The notes: generated from the sequence alone by a model not told the origin. Positions 28,208-40,357 are shown, counted from the stretch's first letter. The stretch: 64,000 nt of DNA from a virus (IMGVR_UViG_3300017963_000032:15465-79464), one strand, 5' to 3'. Numbers and translations are program-made.

Positions 28208-28214
28208 AACCAAT

Positions 28215-29549: not shown

Positions 29550-29764
29550 GTGAACCACAAAAACATAACAAAGAATTCATCGACGAGACAAGGAAAGCTC
29601 TTGAAGAAAACTTGAAGGGAATGTGCAACAAGAAGGCAACAGTGAGAAAACTTATTGACTTAGACAAAAGAAGCAGAGTCATAATCACTAAGGAAGTCAA
29701 GGCACTTAGAACAAAACATAAAGAGATTGAGAAGGAAGTACTAGGTTCAATATTTAAAGATTAA
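29546..29764 (+). CDS. coiled-coil hypothetical protein
   Basis: GGAGGCGA RBS. Confidence 0.55.
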   Translation: MSEPQKHNKEFIDETRKALEENLKGMCNKKATVRKLIDLDKRSRVIITKEVKALRTKHKEIEKEVLGSIFKD

Positions 29765-29765
29765 A

Positions 29766-29780
29766 CCGAAAGCTTTATAT
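29766..29780 (+). promoter_or_regulatory. BRE/TATA promoter for the Y-RNA/TROVE unit
   Basis: CCGAAAGCTTTATAT about 25 nt upstream of element 1. Confidence 0.65.
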
Positions 29781-29805
29781 TTATGTTGTCATTTTCATGT
29801 TGTTC

Positions 29806-29895
29806 GGGTGGCGTAGAATAGGGTTACTTCGCTTGAAACGAAACCAAAATAGGCTGTAAGAGCCTATTGTCTATACCCTGTTTGATTGTACCCCC
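29806..29895 (+). ncRNA. Y-RNA-like element 1
   Basis: GGTGGCGTAG-AATA-GGGTTACTTCG 5' strand pairs with ACCCTGTT...CCCCC. Internal hairpins TTCG-CTTGAAA-CGAA and AATAGGCT/AGCCTATT. Confidence 0.7.
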
Positions 29896-29910
29896 ACAAC
29901 TCATGTTCAT

Positions 29911-30035
29911 GGTGGCGTAGTCGAGAGTTACTTCGACTCGTAATCGAGAGGTCGCAGGTTCGAATCCTGTCATGTGCTTCGGCACGTGTAGCTCAGTTTG
30001 GTAGAGCGCTAACGTACTCTCGACGACTGTTCCCC
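29911..30035 (+). ncRNA. YrlA-like Y RNA, element 2 (permuted tRNA mimic)
   Basis: Closing stem GTCGAGAG/CTCTCGAC. Anticodon-like arm 29932-29948, T arm 29954-29970 (TTCGAAT), 7-bp acceptor stem closed by UUCG 29971-29988, D arm 29991-30007. Confidence 0.85.
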
Positions 30036-30072
30036 TTCATAATCATAAGCACTAAGGTACCAGATTGACAGT

Positions 30073-30138
30073 ATGCGGTGACGTAAACAAGGGATACTTC
30101 GTTCCTAAGAAAAGACCCTCGTTGCTTGTTTCCCGCAT
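30073..30138 (+). ncRNA. Y-RNA-like element 3 (minimal)
   Basis: GGTGACGTAA-ACAA-GGGATACTTCG; termini ATGCGG/CCGCAT pair. Confidence 0.6.
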
Positions 30139-30155
30139 TCATTATCATAGTCATT

Positions 30156-30270
30156 GGGTGGCGTAGTAAAGAGTTACTTCGGTAAAAAACAAACTTCAAA
30201 ATTTGTTCAACTGGTTCAAATCCAGAATCCCTTCGGGGTTTCAAAACGTACTCTTTACGTCCGTTCCCCC
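30156..30270 (+). ncRNA. Y-RNA-like element 4 (T arm plus capped acceptor, no D arm)
   Basis: GGTGGCGTAG-TAAA-GAGTTACTTCG pairs with GTACTCTTTAC. CTGG-TTCAAAT-CCAG T arm and a cUUCGg-capped stem. Confidence 0.72.
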
Positions 30271-30307
30271 GGACAATTTAATAAATAAGAACATGAGGTG
30301 TTTGAAC

Positions 30308-31855
30308 ATGAGTAAATACAACAAGCCTACTAGAGGCAAAGATAAGACTGTAAACCACGAAGGAGATGTGGCTTACAAATTGGATAGCAAAACAGAACTG
30401 TATTCTACAGTCTGCACATCAATGTTGCAGAACAAGTTCTACGAGAAAGAAGATGAAACTCTGAATAGAATCAGAACTCTCATCAAGACTACAGACCCAG
30501 AGTTTGTGGCTAAGCTAGCAGTGTATGCAAGAGAGAAGATGTACCTTAGAAGTATACCTTTAGTCCTTGCAGTTGAGCTGGCAAAGGTCCACAACGAGGA
30601 CAGCATTCTTGGAAGAACTGTTAGCAGAATAGTCCAAAGGGCTGACGAGATAACAGAGATTCTAGCTTACTACAAAGAAGCTAACAAGGATAACTGGGAG
30701 ACTGAAAAGAATTCTGGAAAGACAAAGCATCTTGGAAGATTATCAAAGCAGATAGCTAAAGGTCTGAACTTTTCTTTTAACAAGTTCGACGAGTACCAGT
30801 TTGCTAAGTACAACAGAAAGGGCCAAGTTACTTTGAAGGATGCACTATTCCTAGTTCACCCAAAGGCAAAGAATAAAGAGCAGCAAAAACTGTTTGATAA
30901 GATTGTCAATGGAGAACTAAAGACACCTGAAACTTGGGAAGTTAAGATGAGTGAAGGTGGAAAGGAAGGAGCTGACAAGAAAGAAGTCTGGGAGAAAATG
31001 ATTAGCTCAGGCAAGATGGGTTACATGGCAATGCTGAGAAACCTAAGAAACTTCTTGGAAGCTGACGTGAGCCAGAAGCACATGGCTGATGTAGCGCAGA
31101 CTCTTGCAGACCCTGAGAAAGTTAGAAAGAGCAAGCAGTTACCATTCAGATTCTTGAGCGCTTACAAAGAGCTGAAAGGAAACAAGAGCTCTAAGGCTAC
31201 AATGATTTTGAACGCTCTGGAAGAAGGAGTGATTACAAGCATTGAGAACTTGAAGGGCTATGATTATAACACAACTGTTTGCGTAGCTTGTGATGTTTCA
31301 GGAAGTATGCAGCATTCAATCAGTGACAGAAGCAAGGTCGAACTTTACGACATTGGATTGCTACTTGGTATGCTATTGCAGTCAAGATGCAAGAGTGTAA
31401 TCACTGGTATATTCGGAGACACTTGGAAGATTAAAGCACTTCCTCAAAAGAGCGTCTTGCAGAATGTGATGGACTTGCATAACATCGAAGGAGAAGTTGG
31501 TTACTCAACTAACGGGTACAAAGTAATCCAAGACTTAATCACTAGAAAGGAGAAAGTGGATAAGATTATGATATTCACTGACTGTCAGATGTGGAACAGT
31601 TACTCTGGAAGTAGAGGAAGCTTTGCTACTTGTTGGTCTGAATACAAGAAGATTCATCCAGAAGCAAAACTCTACTTGTTTGATTTGTCAGGTTACGGAA
31701 ACACTCCTGTATCTGTTAAAGGAGATGGAGTTTACTTGATTGCAGGATGGAGCGAGAAAGTCTTTGATATGCTAGCTGCAATAGATAAGGGCAGTAATGC
31801 AGTGAAGGAGATTGAAAGCATCGACTTGTTCAAGAAACCAAGCAAGAAGAAATAG
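30308..31855 (+). CDS. rsr: Ro60/TROVE-domain RNA-binding protein with vWA domain
   Basis: TVNHEGDVAY, EFVAKLAVYARE..YLR, FDEYQFAKY, ETWE, MGYMAMLRNLRN, SKQLPFRF, CDVSGSM (MIDAS), FTDCQ. GAGGTG RBS before ATG 30308. Confidence 0.95.
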   Translation: MSKYNKPTRGKDKTVNHEGDVAYKLDSKTELYSTVCTSMLQNKFYEKEDETLNRIRTLIKTTDPEFVAKLAVYAREKMYLRSIPLVLAVELAKVHNEDSILGRTVSRIVQRADEITEILAYYKEANKDNWETEKNSGKTKHLGRLSKQIAKGLNFSFNKFDEYQFAKYNRKGQVTLKDALFLVHPKAKNKEQQKLFDKIVNGELKTPETWEVKMSEGGKEGADKKEVWEKMISSGKMGYMAMLRNLRNFLEADVSQKHMADVAQTLADPEKVRKSKQLPFRFLSAYKELKGNKSSKATMILNALEEGVITSIENLKGYDYNTTVCVACDVSGSMQHSISDRSKVELYDIGLLLGMLLQSRCKSVITGIFGDTWKIKALPQKSVLQNVMDLHNIEGEVGYSTNGYKVIQDLITRKEKVDKIMIFTDCQMWNSYSGSRGSFATCWSEYKKIHPEAKLYLFDLSGYGNTPVSVKGDGVYLIAGWSEKVFDMLAAIDKGSNAVKEIESIDLFKKPSKKK

Positions 31856-31868
31856 AAAGCTTTAAATA
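31855..31868 (+). promoter_or_regulatory. BRE/TATA promoter for tRNA array 1
   Basis: GAAAGCTTTAAATA, near-identical to the 29766 promoter. Confidence 0.55.
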
Positions 31869-32056
31869 TTTCTTTATTATTCTTTTTTTGTTTTATTTGA
31901 AACTAGGTGATTAAAGCAATATGTTATACAACACGACAACCGGAATGTGTACATCAGACTTACTTAATAGTCTGGCGTCTCATTGATTCGGGCCTGTCGT
32001 TGTTAAACTTTTTCTGCGCTTTGTTGTTTGATGACGACAAGGCAAAGCTATATCAT

Positions 32057-32141
32057 ACCGAGGTCGGATAGCGGTCAATTCCAAAGGGCTCATGACCCTT
32101 CGCTCATCAGAGCTGCGCAGGTTCAATTCCTGCTCTCGGTA
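32057..32141 (+). tRNA. tRNA-iMet(CAT) with long variable arm
   Basis: A1:U72, three G-C pairs in the anticodon stem (AAGGG/CCCTT), extra GCTC-ATCA-GAGC arm. Confidence 0.85.
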
Positions 32142-32149
32142 TCTTTTAT

Positions 32150-32221
32150 GCCTTCAGAGTGCGTGAGGTAGCACACCTGACTGTTAATCAGGAAGTCCAA
32201 GTTCGACTCTTGGTGAGGGCG
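32150..32221 (+). tRNA. tRNA-Asn(GTT)
   Basis: Cloverleaf; CCTGA-CTGTTAA-TCAGG. Confidence 0.92.
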
Positions 32222-32226
32222 TTCAT

Positions 32227-32364
32227 AGGCGGGTGCCAGAGCCCGGTTGAATGGGCTGGACTTAGGAGCCAAATGGCTTGGTCAAAGGGCCACACTCAAA
32301 ACCGATAGCTTAGAAATCCAGTGCGGTAGCGCTAAACACGTGGGTTCGAATCCCACCCCGCCTA
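32227..32364 (+). tRNA. tRNA-Leu(TAG) with 37/38 intron (32267-32315)
   Basis: CTGGA/TCCAG stem, long V arm, A73; BHB with one U.U pair. Confidence 0.82.
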
Positions 32365-32370
32365 TCAAAT

Positions 32371-32500
32371 GCCGAGGTTGAGCAGCTGGTAGCTCGCTGG
32401 TCTGCTGATTAACTCAGCCCAGAGTGGAGTTCCGGGTTGTTAGCCCAGAGTTGAAAACCAGTTCCCTTGCGGTCTGCGGGTTCGAGTCCCGTCCTCGGCG
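32371..32500 (+). tRNA. tRNA-Ser(TGA) with non-canonical 32/33 intron (32403-32450)
   Basis: Strict BHB: central helix CTGG(32397-400)/CCAG(32445-448) with bulges TCT and AGT. Spliced loop CTTGAAA; G73; extended V region. Confidence 0.8.
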
Positions 32501-32504
32501 TTAC

Positions 32505-32577
32505 GGGCAGGTAGCTCTAATGGTAGAGCGGTTGGCTTGCATCCAACAGGCTTCGGGTTCGAATCCCGACTTGTCCA
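32505..32577 (+). tRNA. tRNA-Ala(TGC)
   Basis: Cloverleaf; G3.U70. Confidence 0.95.
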
Positions 32578-32580
32578 TAA

Positions 32581-32626
32581 GCTCTCCAGCAAGGATACTG
32601 TCAAGTGAGAGTTAAAAAGTCCTTGC
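32581..32626 (+). ncRNA. pseudoknotted RNA element with HDV-like topology
   Basis: P1 GCTCTC/GAGAGT, P2 GCAAGGA/TCCTTGC, P3 ACT/AGT. Confidence 0.45.
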
Positions 32627-32630
32627 GTAT

Positions 32631-32703
32631 GCTGGCGTGGCCTAATTGGTATGGCAGTTGCCTTGTAAGCAGCCGAATGGGGGTTCGAGTCCCTCCGCCA
32701 GCT
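32631..32703 (+). tRNA. tRNA-Thr(TGT)
   Basis: Cloverleaf; U73. Confidence 0.92.
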
Positions 32704-32706
32704 TTC

Positions 32707-32779
32707 GGCACTATGGACAAGCTGGTAAGTCGTCAGGTTGCAACCCTGAAGAACGAGGGTTCAAGCCCCTCTAGTGCCT
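32707..32779 (+). tRNA. tRNA-Cys(GCA)
   Basis: Cloverleaf; TCAGG-TTGCAAC-CCTGA; U73. Confidence 0.92.
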
Positions 32780-32810
32780 TAATTCTACCATTTATAAACA
32801 AATCTCTTAC

Positions 32811-32865
32811 AAAAACGAAAGATTTATATATAAGCTATGCTTACTAATATGTAAGATGGAGGCGA
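32811..32865 (+). promoter_or_regulatory. promoter with CTTAC-N6-GTAAG operator (copy 3) and RBS
   Basis: AAAAACGAAAGATTTATATA, CTTAC(32840)-TAATAT-GTAAG(32855), GGAGGCGA at 32858. Confidence 0.7.
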
Positions 32866-32870
32866 GCAAT

Positions 32871-33023
32871 ATGAATGACGAACCATGGGCAAAAGGATAT
32901 GTCAGCCCAACAGTATGCGCTGACGGAGAAGACTCTCATGAATGGGAGAATACAGTTATGGTAGAAAATGGCTGTATAGAAATACCAGTAAGGCACTGCA
33001 AGAAGTGCGGATTTTATATGTAA
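32871..33023 (+). CDS. 50-aa Cys/His microprotein
   Basis: Read manually: MNDEPW...C...HEW...HCKKCGFYM*. Confidence 0.55.
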   Translation: MNDEPWAKGYVSPTVCADGEDSHEWENTVMVENGCIEIPVRHCKKCGFYM

Positions 33024-33040
33024 AAATGGAGGCGAGAAAT

Positions 33041-33565
33041 ATGAGAAAAACATTATATAAGGAGACGAAAACAACTGGCTGCGAGATGGAAGACGGCAGC
33101 GACACAAGAAAGACTGAATCAACTTTGATTTTGGTCAATGAATCGGAAGAGGAATCCTACCAAGACCACGTGGCTGATGAAGCAGGAAGTCAAGACTACA
33201 GTTACCAGTTCAATAACAAAGCAATCATAACTCTTGAAGATGGAGATTGGGATAAGGTTGCAGACCTTCTTGAAGCTGAAGGCAAGATAGCCAAAGCAGA
33301 GAGTGAAGAGTATAATGGATGGACTAACAGAGAGACATGGGCAGTAAAGCTGCACTGGGACAACAACCAAGGAGATTACGAGTCTCTGATTGATAGAACA
33401 AGACAGATGAAAAAACAAGGTAAGTCACCTTATAACTTAGCATCAGAATTAAAAGAGTATGCTGAAGAAGCATTCAACATGATGTTTGAAGGCCAGAAAC
33501 TTCCAGAGCAAACAGCACACTTCATCAATGATGTGGGCAGCCTTTGGAGAGTTAATTGGAAATAG
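33041..33565 (+). CDS. hypothetical protein
   Basis: GGAGGCGA RBS before ATG 33041; YNGWTNRETW motif. Confidence 0.6.
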   Translation: MRKTLYKETKTTGCEMEDGSDTRKTESTLILVNESEEESYQDHVADEAGSQDYSYQFNNKAIITLEDGDWDKVADLLEAEGKIAKAESEEYNGWTNRETWAVKLHWDNNQGDYESLIDRTRQMKKQGKSPYNLASELKEYAEEAFNMMFEGQKLPEQTAHFINDVGSLWRVNWK

Positions 33566-33597
33566 ATTGCTGAAGCTTACTGGTCAGAGGTGGAACT

Positions 33598-33939
33598 ATG
33601 AAAAAGAAAGAGCGGAAGGTTTACGAGGACGAGGCAAACAACAAGATATTTTTTGACATCAGGAAGTACATGAAGAACTTAACCAACAGCGTGATAGACC
33701 AAGATGCAGAAGCTTCATACTATATCCAAAGAGAGATAAGCATCCATAGGCTTTGGGATTATCATGAAGGAGAGGTTCTAGAAATCTTGAAGAAAAATCC
33801 AGAAGTCACAGAGATATTCAAGGTTGAGAAGATAAAAGATAGGGGCCATCTCACAACTTATGTGCAGTTCAGAGGAGAAGCGGAAGTCAGCACTGGATAT
33901 GACAGGATATTCATCAAGAAGATGGAAGTGGTAAAATGA
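33598..33939 (+). CDS. hypothetical protein
   Basis: GAGGTGG RBS. Confidence 0.55.
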   Translation: MKKKERKVYEDEANNKIFFDIRKYMKNLTNSVIDQDAEASYYIQREISIHRLWDYHEGEVLEILKKNPEVTEIFKVEKIKDRGHLTTYVQFRGEAEVSTGYDRIFIKKMEVVK

Positions 33940-34832
33940 ATACTTGGAAGACCTTCAATAAGTATGTTGATTTCCACAAGAAAGGATTGGACTTGGGCTT
34001 AGAGCCTTACACTATTGGAGAGCCTGAAGAGACATTCATAGAGAAATTAGATAACACCTTCGCACACGGCAAAGTCTTTGATATAAATGAAGATGTTAAG
34101 GATTTGCTTTTGAGAACTAAAGGGACAAAGGAGATTGACAAAGTACCTTTTGAGAGTATCTTTATTGATACAGACTTTGATGTTTCAGAGTTCAAGGAGA
34201 AGCAAGACAATGATGACATAACAAGCGTTGCAGGATTGCTCGTATCTGTGGCCAACAAGGTAGAGATAATAGAGAACAAAGAATATGTGAAGAACTCAAC
34301 TCTAGACTTGAAGACATTAAGGGGTGCTGAAGGATTCAAGATATACTGGCTCGGGCTAGACAAAGGAAAGATAGGTTATTGCTTTCACACAATCAACATA
34401 GTCAACAAGAACAATCTAGACATGGAGTTTGAGATTAGCAGCAAGACACCTAAGATAAGAAAGTTCCTTATTAATTTTGTCAGCAACTTCTTGAACTTAC
34501 TTAACAATCCTCAACCAGACATAGTAATCACAGAAAGAAAAGCCAACGAAGCAAAGAACAAAAGATTGATTAGACATGGACAGATTCCAATGCCAACTAA
34601 AAGTGTTGTGCTCATGATTGGAAAATTAAAGATATACCTTGACCAGCTCCGAAGTAATGGGTACATGTCTTACTCTCATAAGTTCTGGGTCAGAGGCCAT
34701 TGGAGAACTCTTAGAGATGAGGACCGATGGGGAGAAAAGGTAGGAACAAAATTATGGATTCACCCGTTTGTGAAGGGAAGCGGAATCCTAATTGACAAGA
34801 AATACAATGTTACCAAGGAGGCGGAAGCATGA
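33936..34832 (+). CDS. hypothetical protein
   Basis: 298 aa; C-terminal HKFWVRGHWR..WIHPFVKG motif of a type seen in phage proteins. Confidence 0.65.
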   Translation: MNTWKTFNKYVDFHKKGLDLGLEPYTIGEPEETFIEKLDNTFAHGKVFDINEDVKDLLLRTKGTKEIDKVPFESIFIDTDFDVSEFKEKQDNDDITSVAGLLVSVANKVEIIENKEYVKNSTLDLKTLRGAEGFKIYWLGLDKGKIGYCFHTINIVNKNNLDMEFEISSKTPKIRKFLINFVSNFLNLLNNPQPDIVITERKANEAKNKRLIRHGQIPMPTKSVVLMIGKLKIYLDQLRSNGYMSYSHKFWVRGHWRTLRDEDRWGEKVGTKLWIHPFVKGSGILIDKKYNVTKEAEA

Positions 34833-35095
34833 ATGGAAAAGAATTATGGATGAGGATATTCAACACAGACTTTGAGGAAGCAGTCTTATCTCATCTAAAC
34901 TTAGAAAAGAACTTTGAAGATGAAGGAACTGACGAAGAGAACAAAGAGATTGTAGAGGCTCTTGAAGGAAAAACCTTGCAAGACATGATAGATTATAGGT
35001 GTCAATATTTTGGATATGGAATTGATTCAACAGATATAAGAGACATGATTGAGCAACTCCAGATAGAAGACATAAAGGAAATAAAAGGGTGGTAA
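34829..35095 (+). CDS. acidic hypothetical protein
   Basis: GGAGGCGG RBS. Confidence 0.55.
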   Translation: MNGKELWMRIFNTDFEEAVLSHLNLEKNFEDEGTDEENKEIVEALEGKTLQDMIDYRCQYFGYGIDSTDIRDMIEQLQIEDIKEIKGW

Positions 35096-35096
35096 T

Positions 35097-35981
35097 ATGG
35101 CAAAAGAAAAATTCAGAGAGAAACTACATCTCTCACCAAAGAACAAGAAACAACTTGAAGTTATCAATGAAATTATAGATGAGTACGCAGCAGAAGGTTA
35201 CAAGCTAACATTAAGGCAGCTTTATTACCAGTTAGTGTCCAGAGACATAATCCCTAACAAACAATCAGAGTATGCAAAACTTAGCAACTTACTTGTTAAA
35301 GGAAGGATGGCTGGTGTTGTTGACTGGGAAGCTATCGAAGACAGAATCAGAGTACCATTTATTCCTTACTGGGTACATGGAGTTAAGGATGCAATAGATG
35401 ACACAATCAGTCAGTACAGATTAGACAGGCAAGACGAACAAGAAGTTTACATAGAACTCTGGGTAGAGAAGGACGCATTGTCAGGAGTGCTGAAGAGAAT
35501 CACATCACACTATCATATCAATTTGATGGTTAACAGAGGGTACAGTTCTTGCACTGCAATGCATGATGCATACAAAAGATTCAGAACACAAGCTATAGCC
35601 AATGAGAAGAAGATTGTAATACTGTATCTTGGAGACCACGACCCAAGCGGTCTGGATATGATTAGAGATATAAGGGACAGGTTATTTGAGTTCGGAGTTG
35701 ATGTAACAGTCAAACCAATAGGACTTACTATGGCTCAGATTAAGCAATACAATCCACCACCAAACCCTGCAAAGATTACAGACCCAAGGGCAAAGGATTA
35801 TATCGAAGAGCACGGAAACACTTCATGGGAAGTTGACGCTCTGAATCCTAAAGTCTTGCACCAGTTAGTAAGAACAAATGTCGAAGGCATGATTGACATG
35901 GGCTTGTTCGAAGAGATGCTAGAGAAAGAGAAAGAGCACAAGAAAGAACTGGAGAGACTGCGTGAGGAAAGCAAAAAATGA
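35097..35981 (+). CDS. Topo VI-A/Spo11-like winged-helix plus TOPRIM protein
   Basis: TLRQLYYQLV, LWVEKDAL, RGYSS, YLGDHDPSG and WEVDAL. Confidence 0.78.
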   Translation: MAKEKFREKLHLSPKNKKQLEVINEIIDEYAAEGYKLTLRQLYYQLVSRDIIPNKQSEYAKLSNLLVKGRMAGVVDWEAIEDRIRVPFIPYWVHGVKDAIDDTISQYRLDRQDEQEVYIELWVEKDALSGVLKRITSHYHINLMVNRGYSSCTAMHDAYKRFRTQAIANEKKIVILYLGDHDPSGLDMIRDIRDRLFEFGVDVTVKPIGLTMAQIKQYNPPPNPAKITDPRAKDYIEEHGNTSWEVDALNPKVLHQLVRTNVEGMIDMGLFEEMLEKEKEHKKELERLREESKK

Positions 35982-36763
35982 AGGAGAAGATTAAAGGACT
36001 CTGCAAGCAGATAGAGAAAGAAAAAGGAATCAAGATACTATTTGCTGTAGAGAACGGAAGCAGAGCTTGGGGCATGGAGAGTGAAGACTCAGACTATGAC
36101 ATCAGGTTCGTCTATCACAGGGAAGTCAAGGACTATCTTTGCCTGAACCCAAGTGATGAAGTAATCAAAGCAAGCTTCGATAAGGAAGGAAACAAAGCTC
36201 CAGCTGAAGGATGTTTCTTTGATATTGTAGGATTCGATTTGTTCAAGTTCGCAAGGATGTTGAGCAGCTCTAACCCTCAAGTCATTGAATGGCTTTGCAC
36301 GGACATTGTTTACTTAGGAAAGCAGAACAAAGTGTTCCAAGAGTATGCAGAGAAGTGCTTCAAGCAAATCAGTTTGTACTATCATTACAAGAGCATGTGC
36401 AAGCAGAACTATTTGAAGTATTTAAAGTCAGGCAATCTAGTTACATACAAGAAGTATCTATATGCAATGCGAGGATTAATCAACGCAAGGTATGTAGCTA
36501 ACTTCAAAGTATTGCCGCCTATAAACTTCATTCAAACATTGGAGACTCTTGATAAATTACTTCCTTTGTATGTTGTTGAAAGGTTGAAACAGATTGTTGA
36601 GCTCAAGAAAGAAGGAAAAGAAAAGGACATCATAGAGAACGAGACCAAGATAGATAATTACATTGAGGAGTTCTTGAAGGATGACAGCGAAGCTCCAAAA
36701 GAGAAGAAGCTTTCAACACAGACAGAGCTCAATCAAGAAGTACAAAAAATATTGGGGGTGTAA
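35978..36763 (+). CDS. Pol-beta superfamily nucleotidyltransferase (YcgL/NrdC.11-like)
   Basis: ENGSRAWGM.S.DSDYDIRFVY, SSNPQVIEWL and KKYLYAMR. Confidence 0.85.
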   Translation: MKEKIKGLCKQIEKEKGIKILFAVENGSRAWGMESEDSDYDIRFVYHREVKDYLCLNPSDEVIKASFDKEGNKAPAEGCFFDIVGFDLFKFARMLSSSNPQVIEWLCTDIVYLGKQNKVFQEYAEKCFKQISLYYHYKSMCKQNYLKYLKSGNLVTYKKYLYAMRGLINARYVANFKVLPPINFIQTLETLDKLLPLYVVERLKQIVELKKEGKEKDIIENETKIDNYIEEFLKDDSEAPKEKKLSTQTELNQEVQKILGV

Positions 36764-36765
36764 GG

Positions 36766-37137
36766 ATGGTTGAAATATTGTTTAAACAATTCGTGATAGT
36801 GCCTAAGAGACCTAAGATGTCTCCCGGTAAGATTGCAAGCCAAGTAGCTCATGCAACATTCATGGCACTTGAGAATCAGAAGGAACTCAATAAGCATCAA
36901 ACAGATATTATAGACACTTGGAAACATAACGGGATGTGTGTCATAGTATTGCAATGCAAGAGCTCATCACAGTTGATGGGGATTGCTAAGTACTTGGACC
37001 AATGGAAGATTCCAAACCATCTTTACATTGATGAAGGGATGACAGAGGTTGAGATGGGAACTCCTACAGCTCTTGCAACAGGCGTACTTCCTTTAGATAA
37101 ACATTGGATGCTTGGTCAGTTGGAGTTGTTAAAATGA
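36766..37137 (+). CDS. pth2: peptidyl-tRNA hydrolase type 2
   Basis: KMSPGKIASQVAHA and IDEGMTEV..GTPT. Confidence 0.9.
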   Translation: MVEILFKQFVIVPKRPKMSPGKIASQVAHATFMALENQKELNKHQTDIIDTWKHNGMCVIVLQCKSSSQLMGIAKYLDQWKIPNHLYIDEGMTEVEMGTPTALATGVLPLDKHWMLGQLELLK

Positions 37138-37403
37138 TACTGGCAATAGACCCTGATGGGATAATCAGATTAATGTCGGACTGGAGTTTAAGATACAATA
37201 TAGGGTCTGACTGGACTATCATTAAACGATTTGAGATGCCAAAGATGGGCAGGAAAACTCACACTACAAAGCTTGATGAGTACATCCAAGTCCAAAGAGA
37301 AACCAAAGAGAAACTAGAGAAAGAGATTAAAGAGCGAGAGAAGAACATAAAGTTACTCGAAGCATTGAAACAGGAGGCAGAAAAACATGCAAAGAAAAAG
37401 TAG
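37134..37403 (+). CDS. coiled-coil hypothetical protein
   Basis: Coupled ORF. Confidence 0.5.
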   Translation: MILAIDPDGIIRLMSDWSLRYNIGSDWTIIKRFEMPKMGRKTHTTKLDEYIQVQRETKEKLEKEIKEREKNIKLLEALKQEAEKHAKKK

Positions 37404-37563
37404 AATATTCACAAACGCTGAGTTAGAAGTGATAGCTCAGAAAGAGGCAGGCAAGTACAAAGACACAAATGGCTTGTTTGCAGGTAGGATAAAACCTAAA
37501 GTCAAGGAGTTGCTCAAAGAATGGGTACCAAAAAAGAAAAAGCTGGAAAAGTTAATCAAGTAA
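37387..37563 (+). CDS. 58-aa basic protein
   Basis: Read manually: MQRKSRIFTNAELE...KELLKEW. Confidence 0.45.
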   Translation: MQRKSRIFTNAELEVIAQKEAGKYKDTNGLFAGRIKPKVKELLKEWVPKKKKLEKLIK

Positions 37564-37910
37564 TCTGGATGGCTCCCCTTGTTATTTTATCTTTATTCGG
37601 AGTGATTTTCCTAGGATTATTGATTCATGAAGCAACACACGTAGCTCAGAGCAAGGAGCCTATAAGTATATGTTATGATTTTCAACAAGCTACAATGGCT
37701 CATGTTTGGCATGATACTACAGCTTGGGCTTTAGAAAATAATCATACAAGAGCTGCAACTCTGGCCGAGTTTCATGACTGGCAGATATACACAGAGAAGT
37801 GGGCGTATAATATTCAAGGATTTTTATTGGCTATATTGCCATTCTTACTAGGAATAAGCACGACAATGTGCTGGAGGAAATACAATGAGCGGAAAAGAAA
37901 AGAAGATTGA
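37521..37910 (+). CDS. membrane protein with HExxH motif (M50-like)
   Basis: Two TM segments and LLIHEATH. True start probably near 37569. Confidence 0.55.
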   Translation: MGTKKEKAGKVNQVIWMAPLVILSLFGVIFLGLLIHEATHVAQSKEPISICYDFQQATMAHVWHDTTAWALENNHTRAATLAEFHDWQIYTEKWAYNIQGFLLAILPFLLGISTTMCWRKYNERKRKED

Positions 37911-38236
37911 GAAGGTCACAGTCAGGGAATTGATTCATATGCTACTTGATTACCCTAATGACTGGGAAGTTATTATAAGGAGCAAAGGAGGCAACAGGTT
38001 ATCCGGGGCCACAATCAATGTAAAAGAGCCAGAAGGATTAGCTTGTTTGTTTGGATAAAATGAGAGCGAGATTCCATAAGCAAAGTTGGAGGAGTCCAGC
38101 ATACAAGTATGAATTGTTTAAGATATTATTCCATAGACATTCTTACATCAGTCCAGATAAGATAGCTTATTCATTCGAGCTTGTGATATTTGGATATGAA
38201 TTGCACTTAGAGATACTCAGACCAAAACCAAAATAA

Positions 38237-38252
38237 CCAAAACATTTAAATA
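38237..38252 (+). promoter_or_regulatory. BRE/TATA promoter for tRNA array 2
   Basis: CCAAAACATTTAAATA. Confidence 0.55.
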
Positions 38253-38431
38253 TATGTAAGAGTTTCTCGCAAATTATGAGTACCGTAATTTGGAAAAGGG
38301 ATAGAGAACAGGGCATCGGGATAGTCGATGTGCCGTTTCAATATCATCAGTGATTCCAGAGCTGCGGTCAAGACCTTCTAAAATTTTATTCAACCCCTCG
38401 AATCGTTTTGTATCGCAGTTCTAATTTATAT

Positions 38432-38503
38432 GCCCCTATGGTGTAGCAGCAATCACACTCGATTTTCGGTCGAGTAACTTGGGTGCGAGTCCCAATGGGG
38501 GTG
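38432..38503 (+). tRNA. tRNA-Glu(TTC)
   Basis: CTCGA-TTTTCGG-TCGAG; atypical T loop TGCGAGT. Confidence 0.85.
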
Positions 38504-38507
38504 TTTC

Positions 38508-38581
38508 GGGCATGTGGTCTAATCTGGTAGGTCACTTGGCTTACATCCAAGAAGGTGCAGGTTCAAATCCTGTCATGCCCA
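38508..38581 (+). tRNA. tRNA-Val(TAC)
   Basis: Cloverleaf. Confidence 0.92.
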
Positions 38582-38582
38582 T

Positions 38583-38688
38583 CCAGCGCTGAGCGGAGAA
38601 GCAGGTTCGAGTCCTGTCAGCTTCAGATGAGTGCGCACATAAAATATCTGAAGATGTGGTGTATTGGGAGAGCATACCGCTTTATTGG
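38583..38688 (+). ncRNA. circularly permuted tRNA-like RNA
   Basis: Order is AGCGG, T arm (38601-38617), acceptor 3' strand, linker, acceptor 5' strand (38650-56), D arm, CCGCT (38677-81). Confidence 0.7.
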
Positions 38689-38758
38689 GGTATTGGTGTA
38701 ATGTGTAGCATCCGTGCCTTGGACGCACGAGACAGAGGTTCGATTCCTCTATGCCCCA
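38687..38758 (+). tRNA. tRNA-Pro(TGG)
   Basis: CGTGC-CTTGGAC-GCACG; G1-C72; A73. Confidence 0.82.
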
Positions 38759-38763
38759 TAAAT

Positions 38764-38834
38764 GCCTGTGTGATGTAATGGCAACATACATGCCTGTCCA
38801 GCATGAACCTCGGGTTCGATTCCCGACACGGGCG
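38764..38834 (+). tRNA. tRNA-Asp(GTC)
   Basis: Cloverleaf; G73. Confidence 0.92.
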
Positions 38835-38837
38835 TAC

Positions 38838-38948
38838 GGTGCTGTGGCGCAACTGGTGAGCGCATCCGGCTGATAAGGAGCGTGCAGAGCTTATATGCAC
38901 AGTTGCGAAGAGTCTGGAAGGCTAAGGGTTCAAGTCCCTTCAGCACCA
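38838..38948 (+). tRNA. tRNA-Ile(GAT) with anticodon-loop intron (about 38876-38912)
   Basis: TCCGG-CTGATA...CTGGA; relaxed BHB with tandem G.A pairs. Confidence 0.8.
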
Positions 38949-38953
38949 TTCAT

Positions 38954-39061
38954 AGGCGTGTAGTCTAACGGACAGGACTCTTGGCTTCTATGCAGTGCAT
39001 GGCTAGGAAGAAGTCATGTCGAAGAGACCAAGGAATCTGGGTTCAAATCCCGGCACGCCTA
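38954..39061 (+). tRNA. tRNA-Arg(TCT) with 37/38 intron (38991-39026)
   Basis: BHB central helix CTTC/GAAG. Confidence 0.88.
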
Positions 39062-39065
39062 TTAC

Positions 39066-39148
39066 GAGCAGGTCGCATAATCTGGTATTGCACTGGACTT
39101 TTAATCCAGAGCCATTAGGCATCGAGGGTTCAAATCCCTTCCTGCTCA
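39066..39148 (+). tRNA. tRNA-Lys(TTT) with long variable arm
   Basis: CTGGA-CTTTTAA-TCCAG followed by a GCC-ATTA-GGC arm. Confidence 0.82.
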
Positions 39149-39152
39149 TCAC

Positions 39153-39227
39153 AGCCCCGTAGTGTAGATAGGACAATCATCTTAGACTTTGAATCTAGGG
39201 ACGGCGGTTCGAATCCGCCCGGGGCTA
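39153..39227 (+). tRNA. tRNA-Gln(TTG)
   Basis: A1:U72 (archaeal type); cloverleaf. Confidence 0.9.
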
Positions 39228-39231
39228 TCAT

Positions 39232-39312
39232 GGTGCAGTTGGTGTAAGGGTTATCATAGCACGGAAGACTGTGACTCTTCAGGACCGGGTTCGAGTCCCG
39301 GATTGCACCCCA
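39232..39312 (+). tRNA. tRNA-His(GTG)
   Basis: Encoded G-1:C73 and CCA; enlarged D loop. Confidence 0.85.
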
Positions 39313-39313
39313 T

Positions 39314-39385
39314 GGGATTATAGCTTAACCGGGAGAGCACCTCGCTGAAGACGAGAAGGTCCGAGTTCAAATCTCGGTAATCCCA
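39314..39385 (+). tRNA. tRNA-Phe(GAA)
   Basis: Cloverleaf; CTGAAGA loop. Confidence 0.9.
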
Positions 39386-39387
39386 TT

Positions 39388-39451
39388 AAAAGAAGAGAAG
39401 AAGAAAAGGGTTCCCCCCGGACCCCCCTCCCAAAAGAAGAAGAGAAGAAAA
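39388..39451. repeat. perfect 20-nt homopurine mirror repeat around a C-tract spacer
   Basis: AAAAGAAGAGAAGAAGAAAA (39388-407) and its exact reverse (39432-451). Confidence 0.85.
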
Positions 39452-39949
39452 ATGGACTACGCAATTTTCAGAAAGACCCTGTCAAAGGAGGAGTTCTTTG
39501 GCAAGTGGACTAGGGATGATTTTGCTAGCGCAAGCGATGCAGACAAAGAGAAGGGATATAATGATTATGTTGTGAAGAGCATTGTATTTCAGAGGGATGG
39601 TTTTAAATGTCAGAATGTGAACTGCGAGCATCCACACAGTGGATTAACTCTTCACCATATAAAACATCAAAGGAACGGGGGAAAGACAACAGTAAGGAAC
39701 TGTATAACAATTTGTTTAAGATGTCATGAGTTGTTTAACAAGAAGGCCATAGGCCTAACGTTCGCTGACAGACCAGAGCTGCCAGCTCACGTAAGGAACA
39801 GGACTTTTAAGATTAACAAGGACAACAGTATTAATTGGAAACAAGTTAGAGCGGAAGGAAAGAAGATAAGAAAACAGAACAAAGAGCATCATGGTTATAG
39901 GATTAGCTGGGAGATGATGCTTAAACTAATCAGATTTTTGAAACTTTAA
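39452..39949 (+). CDS. HNH endonuclease
   Basis: VFQRDGFKCQ..C...LTLHHI...GG.T..RNCITICLRCH. Confidence 0.9.
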   Translation: MDYAIFRKTLSKEEFFGKWTRDDFASASDADKEKGYNDYVVKSIVFQRDGFKCQNVNCEHPHSGLTLHHIKHQRNGGKTTVRNCITICLRCHELFNKKAIGLTFADRPELPAHVRNRTFKINKDNSINWKQVRAEGKKIRKQNKEHHGYRISWEMMLKLIRFLKL

Positions 39950-39950
39950 T

Positions 39951-40023
39951 GCGTCCATATCCTAATCTGGCAGGGAACTCGGCTTCCACCCGAGGTATGC
40001 GGGTTCAAATCCCGCTGGGCGCA
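39951..40023 (+). tRNA. tRNA-Gly(TCC)
   Basis: Cloverleaf. Confidence 0.92.
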
Positions 40024-40027
40024 TCAA

Positions 40028-40098
40028 CTCCTCTTGGTGTAAGGGCTGCATAACTGGCTGTAACCCAGCAGGACTGAGTTCGACTCTCAGAGAGGAGA
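40028..40098 (+). tRNA. tRNA-Tyr(GTA), archaeal type
   Basis: C1:G72, short variable loop, A73. Confidence 0.9.
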
Positions 40099-40146
40099 TA
40101 CATTTAAATATGAGTGTACATTACTTGGTCTACACTCAATATTAAA

Positions 40147-40278
40147 GGGAGCGTAGTGTAACGGCACCACGTTGGACTCCAGATTCTAGGGTAGAGTTTA
40201 ACACCCTCCGCCCAAAGAATACCCCTCGGATAACAAAGGAGAAACCCAAAGATGCTGGTTCGAATCCGGCCGTTCCCA
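40147..40278 (+). tRNA. tRNA-Trp(CCA) with 37/38 intron (40183-40243)
   Basis: BHB central helix CTCC/GGAG; A31.C39 mismatch. Confidence 0.85.
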
Positions 40279-40342
40279 TTCTTGAATATCAATTAAATTA
40301 CAATCAAAACTCACATGATATTAGGGTTAACTAACGTAACAA

Positions 40343-40357
40343 CGAAAGATTTAAATA
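40343..40357 (+). promoter_or_regulatory. BRE/TATA promoter
   Basis: CGAAAGATTTAAATA. Confidence 0.6.

What the first reader, a model, noticed from the sequence alone, without database searches (positions are those of the whole stretch)
32057..40278. Exactly one tRNA for each of the 20 amino acids
Seen: iMet, Asn, Leu, Ser, Ala, Thr, Cys (array 1); Glu, Val, Pro, Asp, Ile, Arg, Lys, Gln, His, Phe (array 2); Gly, Tyr, Trp (after the HNH gene). No amino acid is repeated. Anticodons follow one rule: U34 for family boxes and purine-ending codons, G34 for pyrimidine-ending pairs. Only His encodes CCA. Inference: selection has favoured a minimal complete one-per-synthetase set that fits the A-ending codon bias. 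No elongator Met was found.
Basis: seen in the sequence. Interest (0 to 1): 0.75.

Follow-up and report, generated by a model that had tools for sequence, protein, structure and literature searches.

The report
Archaeal virus with one-each tRNA set
A complete 79-kb tailed virus of an uncultured marine-sediment archaeon carries exactly 20 tRNA genes, one for each amino acid and five of them interrupted by archaeal-type introns; this is a tidy, non-redundant version of the spare tRNA sets already known from one other archaeal virus and from many phages.

Summary
Rfam tRNAs and ARAGORN in intron mode calls the same 18 plus Leu and Ser. That gives 20 genes, 20 amino acids and no repeat, and none lie elsewhere in the 79,464-bp genome.

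ARAGORN's 21st call, Thr-CGU at 29905-29978, is the tRNA-like part of a Y RNA beside a Ro60 gene, not a tRNA.

Five genes carry 36-61-nt bulge-helix-bulge introns (Leu, Ser, Ile, Arg, Trp). The splice geometry gives Leu-UAG and favours Ser-UGA over ARAGORN's Ser-GCU.

The CAU tRNA has initiator hallmarks. There is no elongator Met and no AUA reader.

The one-each pattern and the all-U34 choice are far from random and fit the A-ending codon bias. The set is not complete, though: it reads 71% of viral codons by standard wobble, or 88% with four-way U34.

Closest known are the HGTV-1 tRNA island (35 annotated, redundant tRNAs) and the TROVE-linked archaeal tRNA clusters.

New here: each of the two tRNA operons follows a small reading frame spelled in that operon's own amino acids, then a stable hairpin. 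This scan has noted that design before on other DNA.

The parts
31855..31868 (+). Archaeal-type promoter (BRE-like GAAAG plus TATA TTTAAATA) of tRNA operon 1
   Evidence: The pattern GAAAGNTTTAWATW has 5 matches against 0.05 expected. All are on the + strand, between 28152 and 40357.
31921..31986 (+). Leader ORF 1: 21 codons, with an AGGTGA Shine-Dalgarno-like motif 10 nt upstream
   Evidence: 16 of the 20 residues after the start belong to operon 1's seven amino acids (M N L S A T C), and all seven are present. Only 2 of 540 small ORFs in the genome reach 80%.
31990..32043 (+). Stable hairpin between leader 1 and the first tRNA
   Evidence: MFE -22.3 kcal/mol, z -3.64, 0 of 200 shuffles as stable. 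The stem starts 6 nt after the leader's stop codon.
32057..32141 (+). tRNA-iMet(CAU), with a 13-nt insertion in the variable region and G37
   Evidence: Rfam 48 bits. Has A1-U72, G11:C24 and G29-31:C39-41. Archaeal control tRNAs.
32150..32221 (+). tRNA-Asn(GUU)
   Evidence: Rfam 56 bits; ARAGORN.
32227..32364 (+). tRNA-Leu(UAG), with a 49-nt intron at 32267-32315 (position 37/38)
   Evidence: ARAGORN intron mode. Splice motif: central helix 3/4, h' 2, h 6. ARAGORN's UAA splice has h = h' = 0. The spliced form is called as a tRNA.
32371..32500 (+). tRNA-Ser, with a 48-nt intron. The 32403-32450 splice (position 32/33) gives UGA. The alternative 32408-32455 splice (37/38) gives GCU.
   Evidence: 32/33 has 4/4 central pairs, h' 6, h 3; 37/38 has 3/4, h' 2, h 6.: -17.3 against -9.2 kcal/mol. 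Both spliced forms are called as Ser.
32505..32577 (+). tRNA-Ala(UGC), with G3.U70
   Evidence: Rfam 64.5 bits; sequence read.
32631..32703 (+). tRNA-Thr(UGU)
   Evidence: Rfam 64.4 bits.
32707..32779 (+). tRNA-Cys(GCA)
   Evidence: Rfam 64.9 bits.
38243..38254 (+). TATA-like box ACATTTAAATAT of tRNA operon 2. The same 12-mer recurs at 40101-40112, ahead of tRNA-Trp.
   Evidence: Read directly. Function is inferred.
38276..38353 (+). Leader ORF 2: 25 codons, with the ATG about 22 nt after the TATA box
   Evidence: 22 of the 24 residues after the start belong to the 13 amino acids of arrays 2 and 3, and all 13 are present (P = 0.00066 by simulation). Fisher test of leader against operon: 1.5e-6.
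38358..38422 (+). Stable hairpin between leader 2 and the first tRNA
   Evidence: MFE -20.9 kcal/mol, z -4.25, 0 of 200 shuffles as stable.
38432..38503 (+). tRNA-Glu(UUC), with deviant D and T loops
   Evidence: Rfam 49.5 bits. No GG in the D loop; T loop is UGCGAGU.
38508..38581 (+). tRNA-Val(UAC)
   Evidence: Rfam 65.2 bits.
38687..38758 (+). tRNA-Pro(UGG)
   Evidence: Rfam 59.9 bits.
38764..38834 (+). tRNA-Asp(GUC)
   Evidence: Rfam 56.4 bits.
38838..38948 (+). tRNA-Ile(GAU), with a 37-nt intron at 38876-38912 (37/38)
   Evidence: Rfam 58.5 bits. Splice motif: 2 Watson-Crick pairs plus tandem G.A in the central helix, h 5.
38954..39061 (+). tRNA-Arg(UCU), with a 36-nt intron at 38991-39026 (37/38)
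   Evidence: Rfam 51.2 bits. Splice motif: 4/4 central pairs, h 6.
39066..39148 (+). tRNA-Lys(UUU), with a 10-nt insertion in the variable region
   Evidence: Rfam 62.5 bits; alignment.
39153..39227 (+). tRNA-Gln(UUG), with A1-U72
   Evidence: Rfam 55 bits.
39232..39312 (+). tRNA-His(GUG), with encoded G-1, C73 and CCA; the D loop is 6 nt longer than the model
   Evidence: Rfam 49.1 bits; flanks.
39314..39385 (+). tRNA-Phe(GAA)
   Evidence: Rfam 66.3 bits.
39452..39949 (+). HNH endonuclease gene lying between arrays 2 and 3
   Evidence: Pfam PF01844, E 7.1e-7. HGTV-1 also has HNH genes among its tRNAs.
39951..40023 (+). tRNA-Gly(UCC)
   Evidence: Rfam 61.7 bits.
40028..40098 (+). tRNA-Tyr(GUA), with C1-G72 and a short variable loop (archaeal/eukaryal type)
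   Evidence: Rfam 47.8 bits; structure. Identity rule from PMC9976931.
40147..40278 (+). tRNA-Trp(CCA), with a 61-nt intron at 40183-40243 (37/38)
   Evidence: Rfam 44.1 bits. Splice motif: 4/4 central pairs, h' 2.
29905..29978 (+). NOT part of the set: tRNA-like module of a Y RNA, which ARAGORN calls Thr(cgt)
38582..38686 (+). NOT counted: orphan tRNA-like remnant between Val and Pro, with a T arm plus a closed acceptor-like hairpin
   Evidence: T arm found. No Rfam hit at E <= 10. Fold z-score 0.11. No splice motif and no anticodon loop can be rebuilt, by eye, from the sequence.

Best explanation
This is a virus-borne spare tRNA pool of an archaeal tailed virus.

What it holds. Twenty genes, one isoacceptor per amino acid. 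Each is either the U34 species, which reads A- and G-ending codons, or the only available G34 or C34 species.

Layout. Two operons: iMet-Asn-Leu-Ser-Ala-Thr-Cys, and Glu-Val-Pro-Asp-Ile-Arg-Lys-Gln-His-Phe-[HNH]-Gly-Tyr-Trp. Each has an archaeal BRE/TATA-type promoter, then a small leader ORF spelled in that operon's amino acids, then a stable hairpin, then tRNAs packed 3-8 nt apart.

Inferred maturation:
- Host RNase P and tRNase Z cut the precursors.
- The host splicing endonuclease and RtcB remove the five bulge-helix-bulge introns. The virus has neither enzyme.
- CCA is added, plausibly by the virus's own class-II nucleotidyltransferase plus HD protein at 28215-29361.
- Host synthetases charge the tRNAs, which carry archaeal identity elements.

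Inferred role. The set raises or replaces the tRNA supply for the virus's A-rich codon usage during infection. It works together with the neighbouring tRNA-care genes (CCA enzyme, Ro60 with Y RNAs, RlaP, PTH2). It does not make the virus independent of host tRNAs.
For: Genes are real and non-redundant.

Archaeal host:
- Inserts of 36-61 nt, four at position 37/38 and one at 32/33 or 37/38, with splice-motif geometry. The summed motif score is 49 against 36.5 +/- 2.9 in shuffles, with 0 of 2000 shuffles reaching it.
- The geometry is as described in PMC4090602.
- Archaeal identity elements, per PMC9976931: Tyr C1-G72/A73, His G-1/C73, Gly C2-G71/G3-C70/A73, Trp G1-C72/G2-C71/A73. Ala G3.U70 (archaeal row blank in the table excerpt seen; Bac/Euk there), Ser G73 and Leu A73 are also present (sequences).
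- Promoter motif: 5 found against 0.05 expected.
- PTH2 gene.
- The best classified TerL match is the archaeal virus HGTV-1, 30.5% identity. Ten of the 11 best genome hits are archaeal MAGs (Methanosarcinales, Methanomicrobia, Bathyarchaeota, Aenigmatarchaeota, Nitrososphaerales, Calditenuaceae) at 30-36%.

No viral RtcB, EndA or Rnl ligase. The EndA control rings only in the 4 archaeal control genomes.

CCA is absent from 19 of 20 genes, and the viral PolyA_pol-head and HD ORFs are present.

Codon fit. Non-randomness.

Leaders and hairpins.

Precedents: HGTV-1; TROVE-linked archaeal tRNA clusters, 20 of 29.
Against: - There are no expression data. No RNA run holding the sequence was listed, so nothing shows the tRNAs are made, spliced or charged.
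- The host is unknown, so host codon usage and host tRNA pool could not be compared.
- Several tRNAs are structurally odd: G37 and a 16-nt variable region in iMet; a 14-nt variable region in Lys; no G18G19 in Glu and Pro; G8 in Asn; A1-U72 in Leu and Arg.
- The splice motifs of Ile and Trp are not individually better than shuffles: 776 and 454 of 2000 shuffles reach them.
- The Leu anticodon UAG serves only 20% of Leu codons by standard wobble, while UUA is the top Leu codon.
- The leader match is at amino-acid level only. 13 of 20 and 19 of 24 leader codons are readable by the viral tRNAs, close to the genome-wide 71%.
- No relative with the same island was found, so conservation could not be tested.
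Confidence: 0.6

Rival explanations
1. Counter-defence set. The tRNAs exist mainly to survive or replace host tRNAs cut by tRNA-targeting defence nucleases or by virus-induced tRNA decay. Their odd features (introns in the anticodon loop, extra variable arms, G37, A1-U72) would be escape changes.
For: Coverage of all 20 amino acids includes 8 with no anticodon choice (and the reasoning above). Neighbouring RNA repair and quality-control genes are present: RlaP, Ro60 with Y RNA, PTH2 and the CCA enzyme. The tRNAs have unusual structures. Phage precedents: PMC10264068 and PMC11464382, of which I saw only the listing and the start of each abstract.
Against: No defence system or nuclease target is known for this unknown host. 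No host tRNAs are available for comparing anticodon loops. The U34-only choice and the fit to A-ending codons are explained more simply by supply tuning.
Confidence: 0.2
2. Passive cargo. The virus captured a mobile 'spare tRNA set' cassette, tRNAs plus an HNH nuclease, of the kind seen on archaeal chromosomes and plasmids. The one-each pattern would be a property of the cassette, not of selection in this virus.
For: An HNH gene lies inside the array. HGTV-1 has HNH and LAGLIDADG genes among its tRNAs. Archaeal tRNA clusters are linked to mobile elements and to TROVE genes. An earlier scan note, e1-5775937, describes a 20-tRNA plus HNH cassette in an archaeal chromosome; I did not check it.
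Against: The anticodons match this virus's own codon preferences for 9 of 11 free choices. The island shares a virus-wide promoter motif. No look-alike cassette was found in 240 TerL-related loci, in IMG/VR by pattern, or in the scan's index.
Confidence: 0.1
3. The CAU tRNA is tRNA-Ile2, the agmatidine-modified reader of AUA, not Met. The set would then have two Ile and no Met.
For: AUA is the commonest Ile codon, 694 or 48% of Ile codons, and is otherwise unserved.
Against: The tRNA has A1-U72, G11:C24 and G29-31:C39-41, as do 2 of 2 initiator-type CAU tRNAs fetched from archaeal MAGs. The elongator-type CAU tRNA from two MAGs has none of these. A1-U72 is described as highly conserved in archaeal initiators (PMC5393177). 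Caveat: A1-U72 also occurs in this virus's Leu, Arg and Gln, and R11:Y24 also in Ser and Cys.
Confidence: 0.07
4. Some or many of the genes are decaying pseudogenes, so the 'complete set' is only nominal.
For: Deviant conserved positions in Glu, Pro and Asn, long inserts in iMet, Lys and His, and weak splice motifs for Ile and Trp. The HGTV-1 reanalysis counts 3 pseudogenes and 2 undetermined among 34.
Against: 18 of 20 score 44-66 bits, against a cut-off of 29. All 20 keep intact stems and 7-nt anticodon loops with U33. Tight 3-8-nt packing and the exact one-each pattern argue for maintained function.
Confidence: 0.05

Closest known systems
tRNA island of Halogranum tailed virus 1 (HGTV-1, Hagravirus)
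   Same: It is an archaeal tailed virus and the best classified TerL match (30.5% identity). The order of the head module is similar: TerS, TerL, portal fused to Mu-F, protease, capsid. tRNAs are clustered in an island that covers (nearly) all amino acids, with HNH nuclease genes between them, at least one intron-bearing tRNA, and a viral CCA-adding enzyme.
   Different: HGTV-1 has 35 annotated tRNAs in the 42.3-53.4-kb stretch I read. Papers give 36, or 34 on reanalysis with His disputed. It has up to 4 per amino acid and mixed G34, U34 and C34. This virus has exactly 20, no repeat, and U34 wherever there is a choice. It has five introns against one. It has no viral RtcB, Rnl ligase or LysRS (HGTV-1 has them). 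The genome is 79 kb at 39% GC, from marine sediment or seawater rather than a saltern. I could not see that paper's supplementary tRNA tables.
Archaeal chromosomal and plasmid tRNA gene clusters (Morgado & Vicente 2019, PMC6333295)
   Same: Dense arrays of archaeal-type tRNAs, a TROVE (Ro60) gene beside 20 of 29 clusters, and a link to mobile elements and proviruses. Here a TROVE ORF sits 200 nt upstream of array 1.
   Different: Those clusters were found only in halophiles and methanogens, are redundant (Leu and Ser up to 4 copies) and mostly incomplete (only 1 of 29 has all 20 isotypes), and often hold pseudogenes. This one is viral, complete by amino acid and non-redundant.
Large tRNA sets of bacteriophages (T4, T5, mycobacteriophages, Sf14 and others)
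   Same: Virus-encoded clusters, interspersed homing nucleases, and anticodons biased toward the virus's preferred A/U-ending codons. These points are recalled, apart from the listing for Sf14 (26 tRNAs for 19 amino acids).
   Different: Those are bacterial-type tRNAs with no bulge-helix-bulge introns. They are usually redundant or incomplete.
Minimal ('superwobble') tRNA sets of organelles and Mollicutes (recalled)
   Same: U34 in every four-codon box and G34 in pyrimidine two-codon boxes.
   Different: Those sets read all codons. This one leaves AUA, UUR, AGY, CGN and internal AUG to the host.
Leader-peptide attenuators of amino-acid operons (trp, his, thr, ilvGMEDA; recalled)
   Same: A short ORF enriched in the relevant amino acids, followed at once by a stable hairpin, upstream of the controlled genes.
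   Different: The controlled genes are tRNAs and the host is an archaeon, where no such attenuation is known to me. I did not show alternative terminator and antiterminator pairings, and no U run follows the stems. The match is by amino acid, not by codon.

Membership tests
Functional archaeal-type tRNA genes | Cloverleaf scoring above the Rfam tRNA gathering score | tested here: met
   18 of 20 score 44.1-66.3 bits against a cut-off of 29. Leu and Ser are missed by Rfam because of long introns plus long variable arms, but ARAGORN calls them with introns and after in-silico splicing.
Functional archaeal-type tRNA genes | Introns bounded by a bulge-helix-bulge motif: two 3-nt bulges 4 bp apart | tested here: met
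   Central helix by gene: Arg 4/4, Trp 4/4, Ser 4/4 (at 32/33), Leu 3/4, Ile 2/4 plus tandem G.A. Summed score 49 against 36.5 +/- 2.9, with 0 of 2000 shuffles reaching it. Individually, Ile (776 of 2000) and Trp (454 of 2000) are not significant.
Functional archaeal-type tRNA genes | Archaeal aminoacylation identity elements | tested here: met
   Tyr C1-G72 with A73; His G-1 with C73; Gly C2-G71, G3-C70 and A73; Trp G1-C72, G2-C71 and A73; Ala G3.U70; Ser G73 (sequences; rules from PMC9976931).
Functional archaeal-type tRNA genes | Expressed, spliced, CCA-ended and aminoacylated | not testable with these tools
   No RNA run holding the sequence was listed.
Archaeal initiator tRNA (for the CAU gene) | A1-U72, three G-C pairs at 29-31:39-41, and purine 11:pyrimidine 24 | tested here: met
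   All three are present. 2 of 2 initiator-type CAU tRNAs from archaeal MAGs share them, and the elongator-type CAU tRNA does not. A1-U72 conservation: PMC5393177. The R11:Y24 rule is recalled.
Archaeal initiator tRNA (for the CAU gene) | Standard anticodon loop CUCAUAA and a 5-nt variable loop | tested here: not met
   The loop is CUCAUGA (G37), and there is a 13-nt insertion in the variable region. The two control initiators have A37 and AGAUC.
Virus or mobile-element tRNA gene cluster (tRNA array) | Many tRNA genes at high density on one strand, with mobile-element genes among them | tested here: met
   7 genes in 723 bp, 10 in 954 bp and 3 in 328 bp. Spacers are 3-8 nt in 14 of the 17 within-array gaps. 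An HNH gene lies inside and TROVE lies beside the array.
Complete (self-sufficient) minimal decoding set | Every sense codon is readable by a member of the set | tested here: not met
   AUA, internal AUG, UUR, AGY and CGN are unserved. Coverage is 71% by standard wobble and 88% with four-way U34.
Leader-peptide attenuator | Short translated ORF enriched in the sensed amino acids, directly upstream | tested here: met
   16 of 20 and 22 of 24 residues; Fisher 1.5e-6; each leader is among the 2 most extreme of 540 small ORFs. Translation itself was not tested.
Leader-peptide attenuator | Mutually exclusive terminator and antiterminator structures coupled to ribosome position | tested here: inconclusive
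   There is one very stable hairpin per leader, starting 6-7 nt after the stop codon (z -3.64 and -4.25). No alternative pairing was shown and no U tract follows the stem.
YrlA-type Y RNA (for ARAGORN's Thr-CGU) | Match to Rfam RF02553 and adjacency to a Ro60 gene | tested here: inconclusive
   43.8 bits, E 3.7e-7, below the gathering score of 69. A TROVE/Ro60 ORF lies at 30203-31855.

The most novel reading that the evidence does not exclude
The two small ORFs may be ribosome-read gauges of tRNA supply. When decoding of an operon's own amino acids is slow, the ribosome's position relative to the hairpin just after the stop codon would change how much of the tRNA operon is transcribed or processed. 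That would be leader-peptide attenuation acting on tRNA genes, and in an archaeal system, where I know of no described case. A second, bolder point: the Ser gene holds two anticodon loops and two competing splice motifs, so one gene might yield both Ser-UGA and Ser-GCU.
Probability: 0.25. Interest if true: 0.8.

Novelty: new variant of a known kind. Interest (0 to 1): 0.5.

Why it matters
- Papers name only one archaeal virus, HGTV-1, as having a tRNA gene cluster. This genome gives a second, very different case. It comes from marine sediment or seawater, has low GC, is strictly non-redundant, and is rich in archaeal introns that only host enzymes can remove.
- It shows that a virus can settle on 'one isoacceptor per amino acid, U34 wherever there is a choice'. 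Because 8 of the 20 tRNAs cannot change codon preference at all, this argues that pool supply, not only codon matching, drives tRNA carriage.
- The introns and the archaeal identity elements tie the virus to an archaeal host.
- The two leader ORFs that split the 20 amino acids exactly as the operons do offer a concrete, testable handle on how viral tRNA genes are regulated.

Tried and rejected
Relatives
- TerL as a single query against IMG/VR gave 43 pattern matches, none confirmed.
- TerL homologues (84 proteins) reach 50% identity at most.
- A 15-sequence alignment fetched 80 IMG/VR loci. ARAGORN on the first 40 found 1 tRNA in all.
- The same alignment was too diverse for the metagenome scan. 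A 9-sequence alignment fetched 80 metagenome loci and 80 genome loci.
- ARAGORN intron mode over loci L001-L160 and L161-L240 found no tRNA array near any related TerL. The only locus with 3 calls is L089, where Rfam confirms 2.
- The exact 17-nt iMet anticodon-arm pattern hit 6 IMG/VR loci with 0 tRNAs, so these are chance matches.
- The capsid protein had no match in the phage collection.
- Cluster look-up gave no names.
- The scan index holds no look-alike of this stretch, and only this genome for the HNH gene.

Host
- A DNA search of array 1 against 5 archaeal MAGs gave 0 matches. That is uninformative for 72-nt genes.
- Runs holding the sequence are labelled sediment metagenome and seawater metagenome. 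Both may be the source of this DNA. No RNA holder was listed.

Rejected readings
- The inserts in iMet and Lys are not introns. They form a plain 3-4-bp hairpin with a 4-nt loop and no splice motif.
- The Val-Pro element is not a working permuted tRNA. It has no splice motif between leader and trailer, a 5:68 mismatch, a fold z of 0.11 and no Rfam hit.
- I first read the Y RNA module as a possible permuted tRNA. After the YrlA hit and the TROVE ORF I dropped that reading.
- A contrast in codon usage between late and early genes: none found.
- A codon-level match of the leaders to the viral anticodons: not better than the genome average.

Literature
- ('one tRNA for each' + '20 amino acids' + phage) found 0 papers.
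- In one search, none of the 10 listed papers joins leader peptides with tRNA gene clusters. Neither search proves absence.
- PMC6409571 was opened but my terms had 0 hits.

Full report
WHAT THE DNA IS

The window is bases 15465-79464 of a complete 79,464-bp IMG/VR virus record with direct terminal repeats. It has 39% GC and nearly all genes lie on one strand.

Pfam finds a large terminase, a portal fused to a Mu-F domain and an HK97-type capsid protein. It is therefore a tailed virus.

The best classified TerL match is the archaeal virus HGTV-1, at 30.5% identity over 68% of the query. In a scan of one genome per prokaryote species, 10 of the 11 best TerL relatives lie in archaeal MAGs, at 30-36% identity.

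The sequence occurs in a sediment metagenome and a seawater metagenome. Both may be its source.

THE OBSERVATION

Three detection routes agree.
- Rfam at gathering score gives 18 tRNAs, all on the + strand, between 32057 and 40278. There are none elsewhere in the genome.
- ARAGORN without introns gives 16.
- ARAGORN with introns, on the whole genome, gives 21: the 18, plus Leu and Ser, plus a Thr(cgt) at 29905-29978.

Leu and Ser escape Rfam because each combines a 48-49-nt insert with a long variable arm. After in-silico splicing ARAGORN calls them in plain mode, as it does all 7 spliced variants tested.

My own scan for canonical T arms finds 21 in the genome. Nineteen lie in the 20 tRNAs and two are orphans.

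The Thr(cgt) call is one orphan:
- It scores 22.6 bits on the tRNA model, below the cut-off of 29, but 43.8 bits (E 3.7e-7) on the Y-RNA family YrlA.
- It lacks U8 and G18G19 and has a mismatched acceptor stem.
- Its 3' acceptor strand runs through a UUCG loop into a 5' acceptor strand and D arm.
- It lies just before a TROVE/Ro60 ORF.
- Two earlier scan notes read it the same way.

The second orphan, at 38582-38686 between Val and Pro, has a T arm and a closed acceptor-like hairpin. It has no rebuildable anticodon loop, no splice motif, no Rfam hit and a fold no better than shuffles. I do not count it.

The set is therefore exactly 20 genes for 20 amino acids.

INTRONS AND ANTICODONS

Five genes carry inserts of 36-61 nt in the anticodon loop.

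I scored every splice that restores a 7-nt loop against the archaeal bulge-helix-bulge rule: two 3-nt bulges separated by 4 bp, with the first two anticodon bases inside the central helix. This matches the description in PMC4090602 (passages).

The best splice is at 37/38 for four genes:
- Leu: 3/4 central pairs, gives UAG.
- Ile: 2/4 plus tandem G.A, gives GAU.
- Arg: 4/4, gives UCU.
- Trp: 4/4, gives CCA.

ARAGORN's UAA for Leu needs a splice with no flanking helices.

Ser has two candidates. One is at 32/33, with 4/4 central pairs and a 6-bp outer helix, and gives UGA. The other is at 37/38, with 3/4 and 2 bp, and gives GCU. The first structure is 8 kcal/mol more stable on the isolated arm. 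Either way the tRNA is Ser.

Taken together the motifs beat shuffles: 49 against 36.5 +/- 2.9, with 0 of 2000 shuffles reaching the observed sum. Ile and Trp alone do not.

The virus has no RtcB, splicing endonuclease or Rnl ligase, so splicing must be done by the host.

IDENTITY OF THE CAU tRNA

It has A1-U72, G11:C24 and three G-C pairs at the base of the anticodon stem.

As a control I fetched CAU tRNAs from three archaeal MAGs. The two initiator-type genes have all three features. The elongator-type gene, identical in two MAGs, has none. PMC5393177 calls A1-U72 highly conserved in archaeal initiators.

Caveats:
- A1-U72 also occurs in this virus's Leu, Arg and Gln. For Gln this is the archaeal norm, as I recall.
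- R11:Y24 also occurs in Ser and Cys.
- This tRNA has G37 and a 13-nt extra arm.

I read it as an initiator, with about 7% left for tRNA-Ile2. There is then no elongator Met and no AUA reader.

DOES THE SET FIT THE CODONS?

In 77 + strand ORFs (22,045 codons), A is the commonest third base.

For 9 of the 11 amino acids with a choice of anticodon, the viral anticodon pairs with the top codon. Leu (CUA, rank 4 of 6) and Val (rank 2 of 4) are the exceptions.

The set reads 71% of codons by standard wobble, or 88% if U34 reads four ways. Left to the host are AUA (694), UUR (735), AGY (617), internal AUG (479) and CGN (52).

Structural genes and the rest do not differ: 0.439 against 0.434.

The one-each pattern has P = 1.4e-7 under random choice of 20 of 46 species. 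All-U34 has P = 2.1e-5. The number 46 is recalled.

Eight tRNAs have the only possible anticodon, so they add supply, not codon range.

Only His is followed by CCA, which chance can explain. The other 19 need CCA addition, and the virus encodes a class-II nucleotidyltransferase head and an HD protein.

ARCHAEAL HOST

- Identity elements match the archaeal rows of PMC9976931 for Tyr, His, Gly and Trp; the Ser G73 rule is from that paper's text on H. volcanii, and G3.U70 stands only in its bacterial and eukaryal Ala rows in the excerpt I saw.
- A BRE/TATA-like motif occurs 5 times against 0.05 expected. All five lie in the tRNA island.
- PTH2 is the archaeal/eukaryal hydrolase type (the type is recalled).

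OPERONS AND LEADERS

This part followed a lead from earlier scan notes about other genomes.

Between the promoter at 31855 and iMet lies a 21-codon ORF, 31921-31986. Sixteen of its 20 residues belong to array 1's seven amino acids, and all seven are present.

After a TATA box at 38246 lies a 25-codon ORF, 38276-38353. Twenty-two of its 24 residues belong to the 13 amino acids of arrays 2 and 3, and all 13 are present (simulated P = 0.00066).

The two leaders split the alphabet as the operons do (Fisher 1.5e-6). Among 540 small ORFs in all six frames, only 2 are as extreme as each leader.

Each stop codon is followed after 6-7 nt by a long hairpin: z -3.64 and -4.25, with 0 of 200 shuffles as stable.

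The match is by amino acid, not by codon. 13 of 20 and 19 of 24 leader codons are readable by the viral tRNAs.

That leader 2 names Gly, Tyr and Trp suggests arrays 2 and 3 are one operon split by the HNH gene. This is an inference.

COMPARISON WITH WHAT IS KNOWN

HGTV-1 is reported to hold the record for archaeal viruses, with 36 tRNAs for all 20 amino acids (PMC8651126, passages). A 2026 reanalysis gives 34, with all amino acids except His and one intron (PMC13532342, passages).

Its GenBank record lists 35 tRNAs in the 42.3-53.4-kb stretch I read. There are up to four per amino acid, with mixed first anticodon bases and two HNH genes and one LAGLIDADG gene among them.

Archaeal chromosomal tRNA clusters have a TROVE gene beside 20 of 29. 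Only one has all 20 isotypes (PMC6333295, passages).

This island is therefore of a known kind. Its variations are strict non-redundancy, U34 wherever there is a choice, five introns, a different habitat and the leader design.

I found no relative carrying the same island.

VERDICT

- The function is most likely a spare tRNA pool for viral translation (0.6).
- Counter-defence (0.2) and passive cassette capture (0.1) remain rivals.
- Nothing here shows expression.

Noticed in passing
window 38582-38686: Orphan tRNA-like element between Val and Pro. It has a 3' anticodon-stem strand, a T arm nearly identical to Val's and to the Y RNA's, an 11-bp closed acceptor-like hairpin, a D-arm-like part and a 5' anticodon-stem strand. 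No splice motif, no Rfam hit, fold z 0.11. Possibly a fifth Y-RNA-like module without the Ro handle, or a remnant.
   Followed up: partly
window 32100-32117 and 39110-39123: Class-I tRNAs with an extra hairpin in the variable region: iMet has a 13-nt insertion (4-bp stem, loop AUCA) and Lys a 10-nt insertion (3-bp stem, loop AUUA). These are not splice-motif introns. The iMet also has G37.
   Followed up: partly
window 32227, 38954 (also 39153): The elongator tRNAs Leu and Arg start with A1-U72, a pair otherwise typical of archaeal initiators. Gln has it too.
   Followed up: no
window 38432-38503, 38687-38758, 32150-32221: Glu lacks G18G19 and has the T loop UGCGAGU, a possible compensating change. 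Pro also lacks GG in its D loop. Asn has G8 in place of U8.
   Followed up: no
window 32414-32451: The Ser intron holds a direct repeat, AGCCCAGAGU twice. The 5' exon strand CUGG can therefore form the central splice helix with either copy. The first copy gives a perfect mini motif that would excise only 22 nt.
   Followed up: partly
window 28152-40357: The motif GAAAGNTTTAWATW occurs 5 times (0.05 expected), all on the + strand. The copies sit ahead of the CCA-enzyme gene, the Y RNA array, tRNA operon 1, and the ORFs after arrays 1 and 3. The tRNA island seems to use one strong promoter type.
   Followed up: partly
window 40101-40112: The same 12-mer TATA-like box as before leader 2 (ACATTTAAATAT) lies 35 nt upstream of tRNA-Trp. 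It is followed by an inverted repeat. Trp may have its own promoter.
   Followed up: no
window 28215-29361: The CCA-adding enzyme is in two overlapping ORFs: PolyA_pol head plus RNA-binding part at 28215-28937, and the HD domain at 28900-29361. It is either a split enzyme or a frameshift. It is the bacterial/eukaryal class-II type, in an archaeal virus.
   Followed up: no
window 39387-39451: A purine-rich direct repeat (AAAAGAAGAGAAGAAGAAAA-like) flanks a G+C-rich palindrome-like core, just upstream of the HNH gene.
   Followed up: no
window 35097-35981: A 294-aa ORF beside RlaP matches phrog_6247 at E 1.3e-90 (labelled 'DNA topoisomerase') but no Pfam family. It is probably a partner in the RlaP RNA-repair module.
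   Followed up: no
L089 768-1689 (metagenome contig, TerL 28% identical): Another probable archaeal-virus contig with tRNA-Pro and a 130-nt intron-bearing tRNA (Rfam 44 bits) near its terminase.
   Followed up: partly
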